The notes under the pieces were generated by a model, which saw only the letters and a list, made by a program, of their open reading frames with translations, made no database searches and had not been told where the DNA came from. Both the position numbers and the translations under genes were made by a program. Below are positions 13,501 to 61,339 of a stretch of 64,000 nucleotides of DNA, one piece after another. Positions within the stretch are counted from its first letter, which is position 1. Each line of letters starts with the position of its first letter. Location: positions 9,362,001 to 9,426,000 of the forward strand of contig OX442314.1 of assembly GCA_949358305.1 (NCBI GenBank), given 5' to 3'. The DNA comes from Strigamia acuminata. Lineage: Eukaryota.

Positions 13501-14481
13501 AATTTTGCACATTTTAGTCAATTTTCCACATTTTCAGCAAATCTCAGCCATTTTTTTACACATTACAGCAAATTTCACAAAATACACCACACATTTACCA
13601 ACTTTCAACTCCACAAAAATCAACTCTGCAAGTCAAACTTTTAAAACAGAGAAAACATAAAAATTAAAAACTTGCTGCTGGCAATCTGAAACCTTTCACA
13701 TATAAACCTTAACCACAAAAATAAAAAAAAACCAAAAAAAAAAACCACGATTTCCTCCCGTTCATTTTCCATTCCAATCCATCTGTTACCACCTCAAGAC
13801 ATCCACAAAATGTCACAAAATCCACATCCATTTAAATACTTTTATTTCCAAAATACCCCCACCAACCCCACCACCATTTTATTCAAATACCAAACACATG
13901 TAAACGCCTAAACCTATTTGCTTTTACAGCAAACATCTGTTTGTTTTTGCCCTACTGCTGCCAGCAATACCCCAACATCAAAAACATAAAAAAAACAACA
14001 AAAAATCCCAACAATTTTTTAATCCCAAAAAAAAAAAAAAAAAAAAATCGACATTTATTTAAGATTTATCTAAGATTTATTTAAGATTTATTTAGCCGGT
14101 ATTAGCATCTAATTTCCTTGTTGGCAACTTGGCATTAGACGAGTGCAGCGCAGTGAAGCGCATTCCCAGGCGGTGCTTTTTGTGTTGTCTCAATCTCGCC
14201 CTCTCGTCGATAATTTACTGCTGTTGCTATTAAAATTTTATGGCAAATTCCTTTATTTATTCTCTCAGATGCAAATGCACGAGGGATTCAACTCAACTCG
14301 TCCCACATTAACAACTGATACTTTCTTTTTTCGTCTCCCACTCTCGCCCATTTCTCAAACTGCGTCTCTTTGCCCAAATAAATCAATTGCAGACCCAGGA
14401 GTGCATTAAGCTAAGAGACACAGACATGCGCACAACAAATTACAACCAACTCATTTGTGCGCATTCCTTTTTCAACAACAA

Positions 14482-14665
14482 TGCTGTGTTCGGACTTCAC
14501 TGCATGTTTTGTGTAGTGACGTTATCTTTGCCTCAGGCGCTGTACCCCCAGCGCCACCTTGTAGCTTGACCCCGAATAAAGCACTTGTTAGTTCTTAGCC
14601 TAATATGACTGACCTTTCATTTCAACCATCCTCAACATAATTTGTTATTAGTAAGATATATACTA
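14482..14665 (+). repeat. 5' LTR (TG...TA)
   Basis: Direct repeat of 19021-19204. Contains AATAAA and a GGCGCTG...CAGCGCC stem. Confidence 0.95.
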
Positions 14666-14667
14666 AA

Positions 14668-14677
14668 TGGCGACGAG
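14668..14677 (+). promoter_or_regulatory. Primer-binding site, probably tRNA-Ser(GCU)
   Basis: TGGCGACGAG lies 2 nt after the 5' LTR and is complementary to the ...CTCGTCGCCA 3' end of eukaryotic tRNA-Ser(GCU) (tRNA sequence recalled, not searched). Confidence 0.75.
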
Positions 14678-14861
14678 ATAAGGATCCGAAATCCACGTGC
14701 AACTAATGAATCCAGTAGCGACGCAAGTTTTTTTCGTGTTTTTCGAACTTTTGAGCGCTTTTTCGGCCCGTTGCTGACCACGCCGTCCCGACGTTAGGCC
14801 TACGTTCCATTGTCACGTTTTCCTCGCGTTTTCGTACTCAACGCCGACTTTTGCCATCAAA

Positions 14862-17800
14862 ATGTCAGCTCTAAAAGGGACACCGCGGGAATACGATCCA
14901 ACAGAGGATTGGGGCCTGTATTGCAAGCGAATGACGAGCATTTTCGCTTGTAACAAAATCGTCGATGACCAGGAGAAGGTCCACACGCTGCTGTCGTACG
15001 TCGGCATGCCGACGTTTAAGCAGCTGGACACGCTCGCGGCGCCGAAGGAAGCTGCCGACTTGAAGTACGCGGACCTTGTGGCCTTGATGCAGAAAAATGC
15101 ACGCGCGAAGCCGCTCGTGCTGGGAGAAATTCGCCGTTTTCACCGCCGTGATCGATTGCCGAATGAAACCGTGCTGGAGTATTCTCTCGCTCTTCAGGAC
15201 CTGGCCCAAAACTGTGAGTTCGCCGACAAAACTAACGAATTAAGAAATCGCTTTCTTTGTGGCCTCCAGAATGAGCAAGTGCAACAGGCGCTCACGTTAA
15301 AAAAAGATTTGACGTTCGACGACGCGGTCGAGTTCGCTGCCGCTGCTGAAGTGTCGCAAAAGGAATTTTCGACAATCGCGACGCAGAATGCATCGGCGCT
15401 GCCGGTGCACAAACTCCACTACGACTCCAAACCACGTCACGATGCGTCAAGGGGTAGAAAACGCTCCTCGAGGGGCACTACCTCGTTTCAACCAGGCCGC
15501 CAACCATCCAACTCGAAAGGAAATGTGTCGGCGTGTTCTGCTTGCGGCAGTAAGTCGCACACGCGTGAAGCGTGCCGTTTTCGCGATGCCACGTGCCACG
15601 GATGCGGAAAAACTGGCCACATCAAACCAGTTTGCCGGTCGGTCTTGAAGTCACCAGCTCCAGTCCATGCAGTCGAGATGCCACAACAGCTCACGTACTA
15701 CGCTGTCGAGCCGGATTTGACGACGACCGTCAACGCGATTGGCATTAAAGCCACACAACCAATTATTTTGGCCATTAAAATTGCTAATGTCAATCTCCTA
15801 ATGGAAATGGACACGGGAGCAGGCGCTACATTTATAAATCTCGAAACTTACACTAAATATTTTTCAAATTTTCCATTGCAGCCCCTTCCGATCCAGATGA
15901 ATACGTATGGCGGCACAACACTCCGAATGGAAGGGGTTTGCGAAGTTCCGGTTCGTCATCGTGATCGCGATTTTCGTTTGCCGTTGTGCGTGGCGACTCA
16001 CGGCCCCGTCCCACTTCTTGGCCGCGACTGGCTCGAAGCATTTGGTTTGCTGTCGAAAACTGGCGACCTGGTGGGCGCAGAAGTATTTTCGTTGTCCACA
16101 TCGACGCCAACGCCCGAGAAGCTCGATACACCGTCGTCCAACAGATTGGACGAGATTTTGGAACGTCATGCCAACGTTTTTCGCGATGAAATCGGATGCT
16201 ACAACGTGCACAAGGTCCACATCGATATCGATCCGGCCGTGCAACCGATATTTTTGAAGAATTACCCAGTTCCACTCGCGATGAAGCCACGACTGGAGGA
16301 AGAGCTGCGCAGACTGCAGGATTTAGGTATCATAACTCCTGTCGCTTCTTCTAAATGGGCGACACCTATTATGCATGTCCTTAAATCAGATGGCACGTTA
16401 AAGATAGCGGGATGCTATAATAGAACCATAAATAAGGCGGTTCTCCCCAACTCTTACCCTTTACCTCTGTTTGAAGACGTTGCAGCGAAGTTGTCGGGCG
16501 GTGAGACGTATTCTACTCTAGATATGAATCACGCCTACAACCAGCTGGAGTTGGATGCAGAGAGTAAATTGGTGTGCACAATTAATACCCACTTGGGTCT
16601 CTTCACAGTAAATAGACTTTTTTACGGGATATCCAGCGCGCCGGCAATCTTCCAACGCGAGATGGACAAATTAACAGCCAAAGTCGAGAGTACGCAGCCG
16701 TTCATTGATGATTCGGCCGTGACCGGTGCAACAAACGCAACGCACTTATGCAACCTGGATCAATTATTGGGTGCATTTGACAAAGCCAATTTAACATTAA
16801 ATAGAAAAAAGTGCAAGTTTTTGCGTGCTTGTGTGCAGTTTTTGGGGCTGAACATTTCCAAGCTAGGAATCACGCCAGTGGACTCAAAATTGGCTCCACT
16901 ACGCAACGCCATGCAGCCAACCGACGTTTTATCGCTCAAATCGTTCCTGGGGCTCATAAACTATTATGGCAAATTTATTAATAATTTATCCACTTTATTA
17001 GAGCCGCTTTACCGCCTCACGCGCGACGATACGCCGTGGACATGGGGACAGGAACAACACAAGGCCTGGACGAAGGTCAAGGCTGCAGTAACTGTCGATT
17101 CAGCGCTGGCACACTACGACGCGAAGAAGCAACTTTATCTGACCGTTGATGCCTCGCCGGTCGGTGTGGGCGCCTTTATTTCCCACGTAGAAAATGGAAT
17201 CCATCGTCCAATTGCCTTTGCGAGTTCCCTCTTGTCCAGCGCGCAGAAAAATTATGCGCAAATCGACCGTGAAGGTCTTGCGATCGTTTATGGCGTTCGC
17301 CGCTTCCATCACCACCTGTTTGGGAGAAAATTCATTTTACGAACTGACCACAAACCGCTGGTGGCCATTTTCGGAGAGAAGAAAGGATGCAATCAAATTG
17401 TCGCCGCTCGCCTGCACCGGTGGGCAATTTTCCTGAGTGCCTACGATTATGCTATCGAGCATGTGCCTGCGGTCGACAACCAAATTGCAGATGGATTGTC
17501 TCGCAATCCTCAACCTGTTGTCGACGGTCGAGAAGACCTCGACATGCACGTTAACGAAATATTTTCCGTTTCTCTTTCGCAGTTTCCAGTATCGCAAGCA
17601 GCCTTGCGTGCAGCATACGACGCAGACGCCCAATTGCAAGCAGTTCTGCAGTGCATCCGAGACGAATGGAAATCAAAGACACCTGACTTAATAAATTTTT
17701 ATAAGCACAGGTCCGCCTTTTCCACACATGGACCATTCTTGTTCCTGTCGGAGCGTTTGGTCGTGCCAGAGCAGCTTCGCCGTGCAGTCCTGACGGAGTT

Positions 17801-18920
17801 GCATGCAGGACATTTCGGAATCGTTCGCACCAAGTCGCTCGCTCGCTCAACAGTTTGGTGGCCGTCAATCGACCGTGACATCGAGTCGATGGTGCGTTCG
17901 TGCGACGTGTGCCAGCGCGCACTCCCGGATCCGCCAAAGACGTCCGACCTGCGTTGGCCCATTCCCGACGAAATTTGGGGGCGAATCCACCTCGATTTCG
18001 CCGGCCCCTTCCATGGCAAAATGTTCCTGCTGGCTGTGGATGCGCGCACCAAGTGGTGCGAAGTTCGTATGATGACCGCCACTACCTCGAAAGCAACAAT
18101 TGCGGTTTTAAAATGTTGGTTTAAACGTCACGGCTTGCCGATCCACGTTCATTCCGACAATGGGCCGCAATTCACTTCAGCGGAATTTGTTGACTTCCTG
18201 TCACGGAACGGCATCCGACAAACTCGTTCACCGCCTTTCCACCCAGCTACCAACGGAGCAGTGGAAGGCTTCGTGAAGACTTTTAAAAATCAAGTCGGAA
18301 AATTTCTAAATTTGAATTTGAGCATTTCAGAAGCCGTTGACCAATTTTTAATTGCCTATCGCTCGACGCCGCACGTTTCTACACGGACTACGCCGTCCGA
18401 GGCATTTCTACAACGAACTGTTCGAACTAGATTACATTTGTTGAACCCCCGCTTAATGCCGGAGCCAACAACTGTGGAAACGCGCCGTTCCTTCGAGCCT
18501 GGGGAATTGGTGTTCGCGCGCGACTATTTGCACGCCGCGAGATGGGTTCCTGGGATAATATCGCAGAAGACATCGTCCACCACGTACGATGTGGCCGTCG
18601 GAAATGCCATAATTTGGAACCGACATGCGGACCAGCTCCGAAAACGCCAGACTTCGCACGCTCAAATTCCGGAGGGGGGAGGGAATCGCGGACATTTTCC
18701 TTTGATAAGTGACGACTCAAACCTCGGTAATACACCCTCAGTTGTACAACCGCAAGTCCTAGTTGCTCCTCCCAATTCACCCAACCTCCTAAACGTTCGT
18801 GATGCTTCTCCAGCTCCTACACCTCCTCCTGTTCCCGTCAATACTCCTGTTGTGCCGTACCGCCATCCCCAGCGTATTCGCAACCCGACACAATTTTACG
18901 GATATAATAACAGTGATTAA
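14862..18920 (+). CDS. Gag-Pol polyprotein, 1352 aa (2 CCHC zinc knuckles, protease, RT, RNase H, integrase)
   Basis: Knuckles CSACGSKSHTREAC and CHGCGKTGHIKPVC; protease MDTGA; RT LD...AY, FYGISSAPAIFQ and FIDD; RNase H VDAS and TDHKPL; integrase H-x3-H...CDVC, LDFAG, SDNG and NGAVE. The PR-RT-RH-IN order indicates Gypsy. Confidence 0.97.
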   Translation: MSALKGTPREYDPTEDWGLYCKRMTSIFACNKIVDDQEKVHTLLSYVGMPTFKQLDTLAAPKEAADLKYADLVALMQKNARAKPLVLGEIRRFHRRDRLPNETVLEYSLALQDLAQNCEFADKTNELRNRFLCGLQNEQVQQALTLKKDLTFDDAVEFAAAAEVSQKEFSTIATQNASALPVHKLHYDSKPRHDASRGRKRSSRGTTSFQPGRQPSNSKGNVSACSACGSKSHTREACRFRDATCHGCGKTGHIKPVCRSVLKSPAPVHAVEMPQQLTYYAVEPDLTTTVNAIGIKATQPIILAIKIANVNLLMEMDTGAGATFINLETYTKYFSNFPLQPLPIQMNTYGGTTLRMEGVCEVPVRHRDRDFRLPLCVATHGPVPLLGRDWLEAFGLLSKTGDLVGAEVFSLSTSTPTPEKLDTPSSNRLDEILERHANVFRDEIGCYNVHKVHIDIDPAVQPIFLKNYPVPLAMKPRLEEELRRLQDLGIITPVASSKWATPIMHVLKSDGTLKIAGCYNRTINKAVLPNSYPLPLFEDVAAKLSGGETYSTLDMNHAYNQLELDAESKLVCTINTHLGLFTVNRLFYGISSAPAIFQREMDKLTAKVESTQPFIDDSAVTGATNATHLCNLDQLLGAFDKANLTLNRKKCKFLRACVQFLGLNISKLGITPVDSKLAPLRNAMQPTDVLSLKSFLGLINYYGKFINNLSTLLEPLYRLTRDDTPWTWGQEQHKAWTKVKAAVTVDSALAHYDAKKQLYLTVDASPVGVGAFISHVENGIHRPIAFASSLLSSAQKNYAQIDREGLAIVYGVRRFHHHLFGRKFILRTDHKPLVAIFGEKKGCNQIVAARLHRWAIFLSAYDYAIEHVPAVDNQIADGLSRNPQPVVDGREDLDMHVNEIFSVSLSQFPVSQAALRAAYDADAQLQAVLQCIRDEWKSKTPDLINFYKHRSAFSTHGPFLFLSERLVVPEQLRRAVLTELHAGHFGIVRTKSLARSTVWWPSIDRDIESMVRSCDVCQRALPDPPKTSDLRWPIPDEIWGRIHLDFAGPFHGKMFLLAVDARTKWCEVRMMTATTSKATIAVLKCWFKRHGLPIHVHSDNGPQFTSAEFVDFLSRNGIRQTRSPPFHPATNGAVEGFVKTFKNQVGKFLNLNLSISEAVDQFLIAYRSTPHVSTRTTPSEAFLQRTVRTRLHLLNPRLMPEPTTVETRRSFEPGELVFARDYLHAARWVPGIISQKTSSTTYDVAVGNAIIWNRHADQLRKRQTSHAQIPEGGGNRGHFPLISDDSNLGNTPSVVQPQVLVAPPNSPNLLNVRDASPAPTPPPVPVNTPVVPYRHPQRIRNPTQFYGYNNSD

Positions 18921-19020
18921 GTGTATTTGTTTTTATTAATCGAATTGGTACATTGTCTATCGTGAATGAATTCTATTATTGTATTTGTGATTTGATTAAT
19001 GTGCCATTAATGGGGAATGA

Positions 19021-19204
19021 TGCTGTGTTCGGACTTCACTGCATGTTTTGTGTAGTGACGTTATCTTTGCCTCAGGCGCTGTACCCCCAGCGCCACCTTG
19101 TAGCTTGACCCCGAATAAAGCACTTGTTAGTTCTTAGCCTAATATGACTGACCTTTCATTTCAACCATCCTCAACATAATTTGTTATTAGTAAGATATAT
19201 ACTA
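19021..19204 (+). repeat. 3' LTR
   Basis: Copy of 14482-14665, preceded by the purine-rich AATGGGGAATGA (PPT-like). Confidence 0.95.
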
Positions 19205-19364
19205 AACAAAACATTTTTTCTCTCTCTCTCTCTCTCTCACAAACTCGCAAAAATATTTCGTAATTGGTGGTCGTGAATCATTCTGCCGTCAGATGGCAGC
19301 TTCCACTCGCGCCAAATATCCGGTTCCATCTCGATGCATGAGATATGGAAGGGGGTGCAAGATA

Positions 19365-23582: not shown

Positions 23583-23984
23583 TTAATTAATTTCCTTCTT
23601 TTCATCATCAAATTCAATCTCTTTGCTTTTTTCGGCAACCAGAGCGCCTTGATACCTGGCCACGGCTTTGTTGCCTTCGCAAACGGCGTGTCGGGCCAAT
23701 TCCGGGGGAAGCATTAATCGAACGACGGTCTGGACTTCCCGACTGGTAATAGTGCCGCGCTTGTTTATTTGCGCCACACGAGCAGCTTCGTCCGCGATCC
23801 TTTCGAATAAATCGATGACCATACTATTCATAATGTTCATCGCCTTGTTGGTAAGACAAGAACCGGGATGAACGTCCTTCAACACCTTATTAATGTAGCT
23901 CATGTAATTTTCCTTCCTGCGCCGGCTTCGTCGCTTCTTATCGCCGCTCATGTTCAACACGGATCGCTTGGTCGCTGGAGCCAT
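23583..23984 (-). CDS. H2B: Divergent histone H2B variant, 133 aa, intronless
   Basis: Histone-fold motifs [39 protein letters not shown] and [31 protein letters not shown], plus an extra C-terminal tail. Confidence 0.93.
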
Positions 23985-24033
23985 GATCTAATGTCCGTTA
24001 GTTTCGAATGTGCTTGAAGTTACTTCCAGCGAG

Positions 24034-57899: not shown

Positions 57900-59037
57900 G
57901 ATCGCTGTCATGTCACTGGCAAATGATACAAAGAACGAATCATATGCTATTATAATAAATATTCACAAGACGTTACAGAAAGAACAAATCCTTTATCAGG
58001 TAAACTTAAGACAGGAAAATGGCACTAATTTAGTGTTTATTCTTAACAAGTTCACTTCTTTAATTCATTTAAGATAATTCGTGTTTTGAGGATTGAATGC
58101 AGCTAACAACACTTGTGTCACGACTTTAAGACGCCCCTCCGTCATTCCACTCGACATAACACGACCGTGTTTCGCTTTTTTGAATGTGCCTTGTGCATCC
58201 AACATTCCAACCCAAATAAAAAGACTCAGTTAACAGTACCCTAACCACATGCAAGACATCCATTTATCCAACCATCCATCTCCTCACCCTTATATAAAAA
58301 AAACCCTCTAAACGAATCTTGACTTCCCTCATAACAAATTCCTTAACCTCTACCCCTTGAACTCCTCATCATCACCATCTTATTCAACTCTTTACGCCCA
58401 CCTGATGCGAACGAGGGGGTCATGTTAAACATGCATCATCATTTCCCCATCCCCTCGGACAACCACTGTCGATCAATAACCCCCACACCCCCCCCCTAAG
58501 CATCACTCAACATCAAATTTCATCATTTTTTGTTGTCCCTTTTTGCGGTCACAAAAGACTCGACAAGCGTTTAATTCAATCAAAAAACACCGCCATTCTC
58601 CGTCAGGGCGGCCATTTTCCAACTCAAAACACGCTGTTTGCTCTGAATTGTGCGTTTCAGGACGAACGATCTCAACATCGCCCTAATTACAGATAGAACA
58701 AATCCCAATTGTGATGTTTCGGTACTTCTCTCTGTGGGTTAATGAAAACCAAGTCAAAATAATTTGAAGTCTCTTGGGCACGAAATGTTTTCGGAACCTT
58801 TTACTAGCTAGGCAAAACAGCAACCGTACACGCATAACGTTTTGATTAAAAAGGTAAACTAATACAACAAAAGAACAATACTATGACACGTACAATACTC
58901 ACACACCACACATGACATAACATACGTTAACTAAAAATCAGCACTCTTCAAATGACATAAATTCAACACTAAGATACTGTGACTAACAAATATTATATAA
59001 AATATTATAAATGATAAAATGCAAATCTCATTTATTT

Positions 59038-60147
59038 GGTGCACGACGTTGCCAGCGTCTAAGGCTGCCAGCGTCTATATTTTTAGCATTTGTTCAATTT
59101 TTTTTTTTTTTTGCCAGCTTATTGCTTGTTTAGCGTTTTAAATAAATGAATAAATAAATTAATATTCAGTTTTTTGCCAGCCTTGTTCTTGCCAGCGTCT
59201 ACACTGCCAGCGTTTATAGTGCCAGCGTCTCACTTTGCCAGCGTTTTGACCGCCAGCGTTCGTTTTTGCGTAACGTACGCGTCGCATACACGCTAACGTA
59301 ACACGTCGCGAAAACGTTACCAGTCCGACTGGATCGAGGAGATGGACTCCTCCAGACTGTTCTGTCCACTGTTCTTCTGCTGGATGAAGAGACGCACGAG
59401 TGAGAACGACTGGCTGCTCTGCGACGACCTGGAATGTGACGAGACGCTCGACTGCTGCACGTCGTACACGGGCACGCACTGCTCGGAGTCGGACGACACG
59501 TTCAGCTGGCTCATGCCGATCTCCGACGCGCTCAGCGACTGGCGCAACAAGTTGGGCAGACTGCGACTCTTCGTCCCCGCCACGTTGGGCGGCGCGCGCT
59601 CGACGCCGCCGCCCCCGCCCTTCCTCAGCTTGCTCCACGTGGTGAGCGCGTAGTCGGACTGCACCATCGAGCGGTCGAGGCCCTTGTGCAGCCCGTAGTG
59701 CACGGAGGCGGCGTCGCCCGCGTCGCACCCGCTCACGCTCGCGCCGTCGTGGTAGTCCGAGTCCTCGGACGACATGTTTTCGGGCGACATGGCGAAGATG
59801 GAGGTGGGGCATTTGTCCCTGCGCACGGCGCCCAGCTCAAGCAGCCATTGGCAGTCGTTGGCGGTGAGGTCCTGCGAGGAGAGCATCAGGTCGTTGCGAC
59901 GCTGAAATTAAGAACGCTGGCAAAATCCAATAAAAGTATTATTATTATTATTATTATTTTTTTATTACTTATTATTTTTTTTATTATTTAATTTATTATA
60001 CGCTAAGACCTACTGACGCTGGCAACAATAGACGCTGGCACCATCAGAAGCTGGCAAAACATTATTGAAAATAATAATAGAAATAATAATAAACTCACGC
60101 TAAAAAACGAGAAGCTGGCGAATTTCGACGCTGGCAAAACCACGACC
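59038..60147. mobile_element. Mutator/Foldback-like non-autonomous element with modular TIRs and 9-bp TSD, carrying an exon (Pack-MULE-like)
   Basis: TSD CATTTATTT at 59029-59037 and 60148-60156. Termini GGT...ACC. The left arm has about 9 GCCAGC(G)T motifs (59050-59260); the right arm has about 6 inverted A(C/A)GCTGGC motifs (59913-60135). The first ~55 bp of the two ends align collinearly. Confidence 0.8.
59321..59901 (-). CDS. Single GC-rich internal coding exon (~193 codons, Ser-rich), protein not recognised
   Basis: Acceptor TAATTTCAG| at 59902 and donor TG|GTAACG at 59320. Open frame RRNDLMLSSQDLTANDCQWLLELG...KSRSLPNLLRQS...SLVRLFIQQK...IQSD with strong GC3 bias. Phase 0 in, phase 2 out. 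Confidence 0.8.
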
Positions 60148-61339
60148 CATTTATTTTACAAAAATAAATTTACTTTACGTGGTTAATACGAACTACAGTT
60201 ATGTAATGAGCGTTTTAGCTCCGTTTCGTGGTAAAACCTGGCGGAAAGTTTTTTTTATGATACCACTCACTTGAGATGTCGATGTTCATCGATTCAAAAC
60301 GAGGCCATTAAGCCCGACCGGGATCCTTTTGTTTGCTCCTCATCTCGTCGACGGACGGACGCGGGACGCGGAGTTTGTTAATAAAAAGACAGACACAAAT
60401 GATAGATGAAAATGGAGGTTGTTGAATCAACAAAAGTCTCAAAGGAGAACCGCCATTGCGCTCCGCTGCTTGTGTACACTGGAATTTCAATTAGCGTTCG
60501 CGATTTATGGACACAGCTCTCGTTTCCCTTTTCTCTCTCCCTCTGTTGACTGATGCTGCAAAGTCGGGCGTTGCGCTTGTTCCGAGGACTTGCTCAAAGT
60601 CATTTCGATGGTGAAGCATTATTTACATGTCAGAAAGGGAAAAAAATATTAAAAGATTTTTGTCAGGAGAAAAATTGTATCTCGGTGATTAGCCAGGCGT
60701 TTCGTGTCGTTCGGCAGCTTATTTCGAGTCGTCGTCTTGCGGCGAGATCGTAAACAATGTGGTAATGTAAATAAGATGTGGGCAAATCAATTGGGACTTG
60801 TTTTTTTATTTGCAGAGATGGGCTTTGTTTAAATGTTGGTTTTTTGCTTGGAGAGCTTGGAGGTAAGAAAAAAAGTTTCCATTTTTTTAATAATTTCTTT
60901 TTAAAAGTTTGTTTAGTCAGCCATTTTTTTTTTTTTTACCGAAAAGGGTAAATCTGGATTTTGGCTTTTTACCCGATATGACGCGTTTTACATCAAAATA
61001 AGGATTAAGATTAAGTGAAATTGAAATTATTTCTTCGACTTACGGTATCTCTTCTGCACCTGCTATTGGCTATCATCGTTACCAGATATTCACGGTTGCG
61101 AAGGAATTCCTATAACAGTTCAAGCTTCACGCTAAGTACACATAAGACTTTCAGACTCTGAATATTCAGAGTTTGAATTTTCAGATTGTCACGCCGCAAA
61201 CGAAATGATTCCACCTGTGCGTTTGGCTGTCTTTCCACGGTTGATCCCTCTCCGGCAGATCCAAATGCTTTTCCTCTACCTAGTCCTACGGCTTCAGAAG
61301 ATGAAGCATTAGGGGATTGCTATTCTGCCACACCACGGT

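What the first reader, a model, noticed from the sequence alone, without database searches (positions are those of the whole stretch)
59029..60156. Pack-MULE-like element carrying an intact, splice-competent coding exon
Seen: a 581-bp GC-rich exon with an open frame and canonical AG/GT sites sits between two inverted arrays of GCCAGCGT. The whole 1.1-kb unit is bounded by a perfect 9-bp direct repeat (CATTTATTT). Only ~10 nt separate the acceptor from the right-arm repeats and ~60 nt separate the donor from the left-arm repeats. Known: 9-bp TSDs, G-starting ends and modular TIRs characterise Mutator/Foldback-type elements; Pack-MULE capture of GC-rich gene fragments is well documented in plants and much less so in animals. 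Inference: the exon was mobilised as a cassette, and its intact frame inside decayed arms suggests it is still spliced and selected, i.e. a transposon-based exon-shuffling or relocation system.
Basis: partly seen in the sequence, partly recalled or inferred. Interest (0 to 1): 0.85.

Follow-up and report, generated by a model that had tools for sequence, protein, structure and literature searches.

The report
Young transposon spreading broken gene piece
In a likely centipede-type genome, a 1.1-kb DNA transposon that is present on some chromosomes and cleanly absent on others carries a near-identical but internally deleted piece of the host's iporin (RUSC) gene in roughly five copies, so it is likely a recent gene-capture accident being spread by transposition, not an intact spliced exon.

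Summary
The element is real. It spans 59038-60147 (1,110 bp). Two public runs hold the exact empty site with one 9-mer, so the 9-bp duplication is a true target-site duplication and the insertion is polymorphic. Cargo and both cargo-arm joints stand at about 5 times single-copy depth in three runs, with almost no differences. The cargo comes from the arthropod RUSC/iporin gene.

The 'intact, spliced, selected exon' reading fails. The parent gene runs on in frame past both ends, so the AG and GT are not its splice sites; the AG lies in the last, degenerate arm repeat. About 137 codons, the best-conserved block of the region (covered in 117 of 119 relatives), are missing at 59769. The 581-bp unit is 3n+2. 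The open frame needs no selection, because cargo and parent are nearly identical.

Verdict: a young, multicopy animal Pack-TIR/Pack-MULE on a foldback-type carrier, the same kind as fly Ssk-FB4 but with a gene fragment. Superfamily (Mutator or Merlin) and expression were not testable. New member of a known, rarely reported kind.

The parts
59029..59037 (.). Left target-site duplication (9 bp)
   Evidence: Sequence; empty-site joint with 9 shared letters in runs X1 and X2
59038..59260 (+). Left arm: GGT end, 9 copies of an 11-bp subterminal repeat with AT-rich linkers
   Evidence: end bins at about 17-25 times flank depth (upper bound)
59261..59321 (.). 61-bp non-parental spacer, internally repetitive (likely filler DNA or old element interior); supplies the GT and an immediate in-frame stop
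   Evidence: Parent contig leaves the window at 59322; 8 repeated 6-mers against 0.57 in single-letter shuffles, 0 of 500 reach it
59322..59769 (-). Captured RUSC/iporin coding piece 2 (matches Strigamia P0002 aa 238-386, 56% identity)
   Evidence: contig shared by element and parent ends at 59769 in X1, X2, X3
59770..59900 (-). Captured RUSC/iporin coding piece 1 (matches P0002 aa 57-100); joined in frame to piece 2 across a deletion of about 137 codons with 1-bp overlap at 59769
   Evidence: contigs 59769-59900 and joint-spanning 59740-59798
59901..60147 (-). Right arm: GGT end, 6 repeat copies plus a degenerate seventh (59908-59898) that holds the 'acceptor' AG and overlaps the capture joint
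   Evidence: arm alignment; motif score reached by 0.12% of window positions; parent contigs leave the window behind 59900 in X3 and X6
60148..60156 (.). Right target-site duplication (9 bp)
59317..59886 (-). Self-contained 189-codon frame (internal ATG to a stop just past the capture joint); no evidence of use

Best explanation
This is a 1,110-bp DNA element with a true 9-bp target duplication that carries a mid-exon, internally deleted piece of the host RUSC/iporin gene in about five near-identical copies by read depth; it likely picked the piece up once by template-switching repair and was then likely spread by a Mutator-type transposase acting in trans, as an unselected passenger. Shown: boundaries, empty site, source gene, both capture joints, the missing block, raised depth, other flanks at the arm ends. 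Inferred: a break or stalled fork inside a foldback-type element was filled from the RUSC gene; the copy switched in at the last arm repeat (short microhomology), jumped about 137 codons with a 1-bp overlap (in frame, a one-in-three chance), and returned through a 61-bp filler; the loaded element then transposed several times, recently. The splice-like sites are by-products of arm and filler sequence.
For: Empty site: joint 59028->60148, skip 1119 = element plus one 9-mer, in X1 (depth 45.6) and X2 (83.5); X3 holds the filled right junction, 60122-60260. Depth of element-only contigs over median flank depth: X1 4.6-5.9 (4 pieces), X2 4.8-5.1 (4 of 5 pieces; the fifth 3.1), X3 5.0-5.2 (2 pieces); pieces shared with the parent are higher, 5.4-6.9, which leaves room for about one parent locus. 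X1 differs from the window at 14 of 742 flank letters but at 0 of 421 cargo letters. Four other flanks abut the arm ends (X1 59033, 60148; X2 59034, 60153). Loose ends behind 59900 (X3, X6) and before 59322 (X3), read by hand, continue the same frame without a stop over the 30 letters shown and match P0002 (L-D-N before, R-N-P-N after). P0002 aa 101-237 are absent from the cargo; this block is covered in 117 of 119 relatives and is the best conserved (mean identity 0.56 against 0.25 and 0.33 for the kept pieces). No other exon of the gene lies in the window. P0002's RUN domain matches iporin (E 2.8e-44) and RUSC1. Subterminal repeats, unequal arms and 8-10 bp TSDs are described for animal MULEs (PMC5499845).
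Against: Depth is a rough guide only: the tool warns it is no copy number, and it is unknown whether flank depth counts one or two haplotypes (about 5 or about 10 copies). No second copy was seen whole, so paired TSDs of other cargo-bearing copies are unshown, and the other flanks may belong to arm copies without this cargo. The short side of the empty-site joint is 28 letters and lies in a high-copy repeat. The parent's missing block was inferred from relatives and from contig ends, not read. Both splice-like sites sit one letter outside the captured piece; the acceptor is explained by the arm repeat, the donor is not (a G-GT-A/G-A word occurs at 0.16% of minus-strand positions). No transposase was found.
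Confidence: 0.8

Rival explanations
1. The loaded element is a working exon cassette or new small gene: arm-derived AG and spacer-derived GT are used, or the internal 189-codon frame is expressed, and selection keeps it.
For: Acceptor with a pyrimidine run and G|GTAA donor each lie one letter outside the cargo; the 411-bp-scale deletion is in frame; an ATG-to-stop frame of 189 codons exists; several copies. Ssk-FB4 is a precedent for expressed, selected animal Pack-MULEs, and 30% or more of Pack-TIRs tested were transcribed as chimeras (PMC8277862).
Against: Length 3n+2 would shift any host frame. The best-conserved block is the part lost. No promoter or first exon was captured, unlike Ssk-FB4. 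Ten other YAG sites lie in the same arm. Near identity with the parent explains the open frame. No host exon was found to splice to (25 of 94 long frames scanned; short exons would be missed).
Confidence: 0.1
2. Same capture, but the extra copies arose by tandem or segmental duplication, or depth is inflated; only this one insertion came by transposition.
For: No other full copy was read; depth is summed over contigs.
Against: Flanks on both sides are at single-copy depth while every element-only piece is about 5-fold, with the step at the element edge; the site here is filled/empty polymorphic, so the loaded element arrived or left as a unit.
Confidence: 0.06
3. The piece is the resident exon of the RUSC gene, flanked by two independent insertions, with a chance 9-mer match.
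For: AT-rich 9-mer is common (6 in the window); arms are unequal.
Against: The empty site removes arms and cargo together; the parent has other neighbours on both sides; no other RUSC exon in 64 kb.
Confidence: 0.01
4. The cargo came through RNA (a spliced, exon-skipped RUSC transcript copied into the element).
For: The cargo is intronless and lacks an inner block in frame.
Against: Contig ends place a 1-bp overlap at 59769 in three runs; no cut consistent with them puts AG before the second piece (reasoning from 31-letter contig overlaps). No poly(A).
Confidence: 0.03

Closest known systems
Ssk-FB4 and other multicopy animal Pack-TIRs (Tan et al. 2021, PMC8277862; abstract, passages, sections 6, 10, 14 read)
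   Same: Non-autonomous foldback-type carrier with 9-bp TSD, host coding DNA inside, several young copies, presence/absence polymorphism, short microhomology at one joint and non-templated-looking filler at the other (2-bp and 45-bp in Ssk-FB4).
   Different: Ssk-FB4 holds nearly the whole gene with promoter and is expressed and selected; here a 579-bp mid-exon piece with an inner deletion, arms of about 250 bp instead of about 700, no expression data, and a likely myriapod host (Strigamia occurs 0 times in that paper's main text; its screen also required captured and parent lengths within 80-120%, which this case would likely fail).
Muta1 / Muta1NA1 of Aedes aegypti, type 2 foldback MULEs (PMC5499845; passages read)
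   Same: 8-9 bp TSD, G-starting ends, 11-12 bp subterminal repeats at about 15-16 bp period, unequal repeat numbers in a mobile non-autonomous copy (3 and 7 there; 9 and 6-7 here).
   Different: Different repeat sequence; the two terminal motifs here share only GGT before the first repeat; carries host DNA; no transposase known.
Plant Pack-MULEs (as described in PMC8277862 passages)
   Same: GC-rich gene fragment between long TIRs; a third are multicopy.
   Different: Animal host; single source gene with an inner deletion.
Merlin superfamily (PMC8101967; passages read)
   Same: Terminal GG, 8-9 bp TSD, TIRs of 24-462 bp, inner tandem repeats, sometimes very imperfect TIRs.
   Different: Arrays of short subterminal repeats in both arms fit foldback MULEs better; cannot be excluded without the transposase.

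Membership tests
Pack-TIR (animal) | Non-TE sequence of 100-5,000 bp between the two ends of one TIR element | tested here: met
   579-bp cargo between inverted arms; unit removed whole at the empty site
Pack-TIR (animal) | Parent copy elsewhere, not flanked by the element | tested here: met
   Parent contigs continue in frame past both joints; its position in the genome is unknown
Pack-TIR (animal) | Target-site duplication | tested here: met
   Joint 59028->60148 with 9 shared letters in 2 of 4 runs
Multicopy Pack-TIR | Several copies with distinct TSDs | tested here: inconclusive
   About 5-fold depth and other flanks at arm ends, but no second copy read whole
MULE / Mutator | 8-10 bp TSD and TIRs over 100 bp, often with subterminal repeats | tested here: met
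   9 bp; arms 223 and 247 bp; 15 repeat copies; feature list
MULE / Mutator | Mobilised by a MULE DDE transposase sharing these ends | not testable with these tools
   No genome held; none among 25 frames scanned
Merlin | Terminal GG and 8-9 bp TSD | tested here: met
   Both ends begin GGT; feature list
Merlin | IS1595-type transposase partner | not testable with these tools
   No genome held
Shuffled cassette exon | Whole parent exon with its own splice sites | tested here: not met
   Parent reads through both ends; inner block missing
Shuffled cassette exon | Symmetric phase (length a multiple of three) | tested here: not met
   581 = 3n+2
Shuffled cassette exon | Spliced into a transcript | not testable with these tools
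   No run on record as RNA was available

The most novel reading that the evidence does not exclude
The arm repeat itself contains a splice acceptor, so any DNA captured at an arm's inner edge comes with a ready-made 3' splice site; this active family (arm ends at up to about 20-fold depth, this cargo at about 5-fold) carries several different host fragments and feeds them into transcripts, making it a running exon-donation system in a myriapod, with this shortened iporin piece as one expressed product.
Probability: 0.1. Interest if true: 0.75.

Novelty: new member of a known kind. Interest (0 to 1): 0.4.

Why it matters
Multicopy Pack-TIRs are rarely reported in animals: four (1.4%) in a screen of 100 genomes, plus Ssk-FB4 (PMC8277862). 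This one is very young, polymorphic, and has both capture joints, an inner template jump, the parent's flanks and the empty site all readable, so it is a clean test case for capture by template switching followed by transposition, in a group that screen does not mention. It also points to a currently or recently active foldback-type family. It is a warning case too: an open frame with AG/GT borders inside a transposon can be a by-product of youth and of the arm repeat. It is not, on present evidence, a new gene or a new system.

Tried and rejected
No whole genome is held, so other copies, the parent locus and the transposase could not be read. Pfam finds nothing in the cargo peptide. No RNA holder listed; run X6 is of unknown kind and was not treated as RNA. 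No relative of the cargo in metagenome contigs (97 pattern matches, 0 confirmed). One exact match of the 22-letter left end in metagenome contigs (L001) is a 73%-GC bacterial-type contig with one repeat unit and no arm; rejected as chance. Earlier notes by sequence and by genome: none. dN/dS was not computed: cargo and parent differ too little; contig breaks at 59349/59378 (X1, X3) and 59599/59601 (X3) hint at single differences at second codon positions, too few and too indirect to count. Of two differences in X6, one is silent and one changes a residue. The idea that the donor also derives from an arm repeat scored poorly (reached by 2.3% of positions) and was dropped. One read-through line was in the wrong frame and was not used. 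Literature searches for a myriapod or RUSC-carrying Pack element listed none; only listings were seen for these, apart from PMC8277862.

Full report
Observation. The sequence is as described. The 9-mer stands at 59029 and 60148. All 11 exact copies of the 8-letter repeat in the window lie between them, 7 forward in the left arm and 4 reversed in the right; counting the 6-letter core there are 9 and 6, mostly 15-16 letters apart. The arms align as inverted repeats far above 200 shuffles, both begin GGT, and they are unequal. The inner piece is 65% GC with one open frame on the minus strand.

It is one mobile unit. Four public runs were laid on the region; all are assembled contigs. In X1 and X2, from two studies, a contig joins 59028 to 60148, skipping 1,119 letters with 9 letters fitting either side: the element (59038-60147, 1,110 bp) and one 9-mer are absent. 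X3 holds the filled right junction. X6 covers little. So the 9-mer is a true target duplication and the site is filled/empty polymorphic. The short side of that joint is 28 letters, in a high-copy repeat; the exact 9-letter overlap in two runs makes chance unlikely.

It is multicopy and young. Against the median depth of long flank contigs (6 of 8 listed pieces in X1, 7 of 8 in X2 and X3; the others lie on the element), element-only contigs stand at 4.6-5.9 (X1), 4.8-5.1 and one at 3.1 (X2), and 5.0-5.2 (X3); pieces shared with the parent stand at 5.4-6.9. Three X3 pieces of unclear kind (59601-59769) were left out of that count. The tool warns that depth is no copy number; I read it as roughly five to ten copies. 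X1 differs from the window at 14 of 742 flank letters but 0 of 421 cargo letters. The outermost arm bins stand at about 17-26 times flank depth (overlapping contigs inflate this), and four loose ends show other AT-rich flanks at arm ends, so the arm family is larger than the set with this cargo. No second copy was read whole.

Source of the cargo. The peptide's best match is a Strigamia maritima gene model (P0002, E 3e-57), then two scorpion-type proteins (3 hits among 7,991 candidates scored). All three carry a RUN domain, and P0002's matches iporin/RUSC2 and RUSC1 structures; the DnaJ name of P0002 comes from a fused tail. A search with P0002 aa 55-400 gave 437 relatives, 120 listed, across arthropods, several named iporin or RUSC2. 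The host is likely a centipede or near relative (inference from the best hit). No other part of this gene lies in the window.

The cargo is not an intact exon. First, it matches P0002 in two pieces, aa 57-100 and 238-386. The missing aa 101-237 are covered in 117 of 119 relatives and are the best-conserved part (mean identity 0.56 against 0.25 and 0.33). In all three deep runs contigs break at 59769 from both sides, and a lower-depth contig spans the joint in X1 and X2: the parent branches off here, with a 1-bp overlap that fits no AG-ended intron. Second, contigs of X3 and X6 leave the window behind 59900, and one of X3 before 59322, with 255 or more other letters. The 30 letters shown for each, read by hand, continue the frame without a stop and match P0002 (L-D-N before the cargo, R-N-P-N after). 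So 59322-59900 was cut from within coding sequence and neither border is a parent splice site. X3 is DNA by its cover of the non-coding flanks.

Where the splice-like sites come from. The arm alignment pairs the acceptor with the last repeat of the left arm, 15 letters inside the previous repeat; its motif score is reached by 0.12% of window positions. The repeat contains CAG, and the right arm has 11 YAG sites. The donor lies in a 61-bp spacer that is not parental and is internally repetitive (8 repeated 6-mers, 0 of 500 single-letter shuffles reach it), like filler DNA. The AG-to-GT length is 3n+2, and reading past the donor meets a stop at once. An internal ATG gives a 189-codon frame. With cargo and parent nearly identical, an open frame is expected without selection; an in-frame deletion is a one-in-three event.

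Surroundings. Among 25 of 94 long frames scanned, only a retrotransposon polyprotein and a histone-fold frame matched Pfam. No host gene to splice into was found, but short exons would be missed.

Mechanism. Most likely (0.8): a foldback-type non-autonomous element was repaired or replicated off the RUSC gene, switching in at its last repeat, jumping about 137 codons, and returning through filler; a transposase in trans then moved the loaded element several times. Capture mechanism, transposase and neutrality are inferred.

Known kinds. Tan et al. (PMC8277862; abstract, passages, sections 6, 10, 14) report 370 Pack-TIRs in 100 animal genomes, four multicopy, plus Ssk-FB4, a fly Pack-MULE with 9-10 bp TSDs, a 2-bp microhomology and a 45-bp insertion at its joints. 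This element is of that kind but holds a fragment, not a gene. Its supplements were not read and could list a closer case. Arm anatomy fits Muta1-type foldback MULEs (PMC5499845, passages); GG ends with 8-9 bp TSDs also fit Merlin (PMC8101967, passages), so the superfamily stays open. Searches listed no myriapod or RUSC case (listings only; subscription papers are not covered). Earlier notes of this scan describe similar captures in other animals, unchecked here, which suggests the kind is not very rare.

Verdict. Observation confirmed; Pack-element reading confirmed and sharpened; intact, spliced, selected exon not supported. New member of a known kind; interest 0.4.

Noticed in passing
window 14481-19206: Young LTR retrotransposon: two 187-bp LTRs 100% identical (14481-14667, 19020-19206) and one unbroken 1,380-codon frame with protease, RT, RNase H and integrase matches.
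   Followed up: partly
window 23583-23987 (-): Lone, divergent histone H2B-like frame of 134 codons (Pfam Histone E 3e-18) with an altered C-terminal end; no other histone gene seen among the frames scanned. Variant or orphan copy.
   Followed up: partly
window 58670-59030: The element sits at the edge of another, high-copy repeat (depth about 3,000 in X1 against about 45 for flanks); other copies of that repeat diverge at 59030.
   Followed up: no
window 59038-59091 and 60104-60147: Arm ends are several times deeper than the cargo, so related elements without this cargo, or with other cargo, likely exist; X1 also shows a right-arm variant lacking 83 letters (60044->60128).
   Followed up: partly
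window 1-57000: Very many short tandem arrays of 10-40 bp units (181 rows); several share a TCGTTATAAC-type unit (11788, 19375, 39798), possibly one dispersed element family.
   Followed up: no
P0002: The Strigamia gene model named DnaJ is a RUSC-like protein fused to a DnaJA tail (aa about 1390 on), probably a gene-model fusion; P0003 and P0004 lack the tail.
   Followed up: partly
P0002 aa 101-237: The block lost from the cargo is strongly conserved across arthropod RUSC/iporin proteins (10-residue bins up to 0.87 identity) yet has no Pfam match; an undescribed conserved region.
   Followed up: partly
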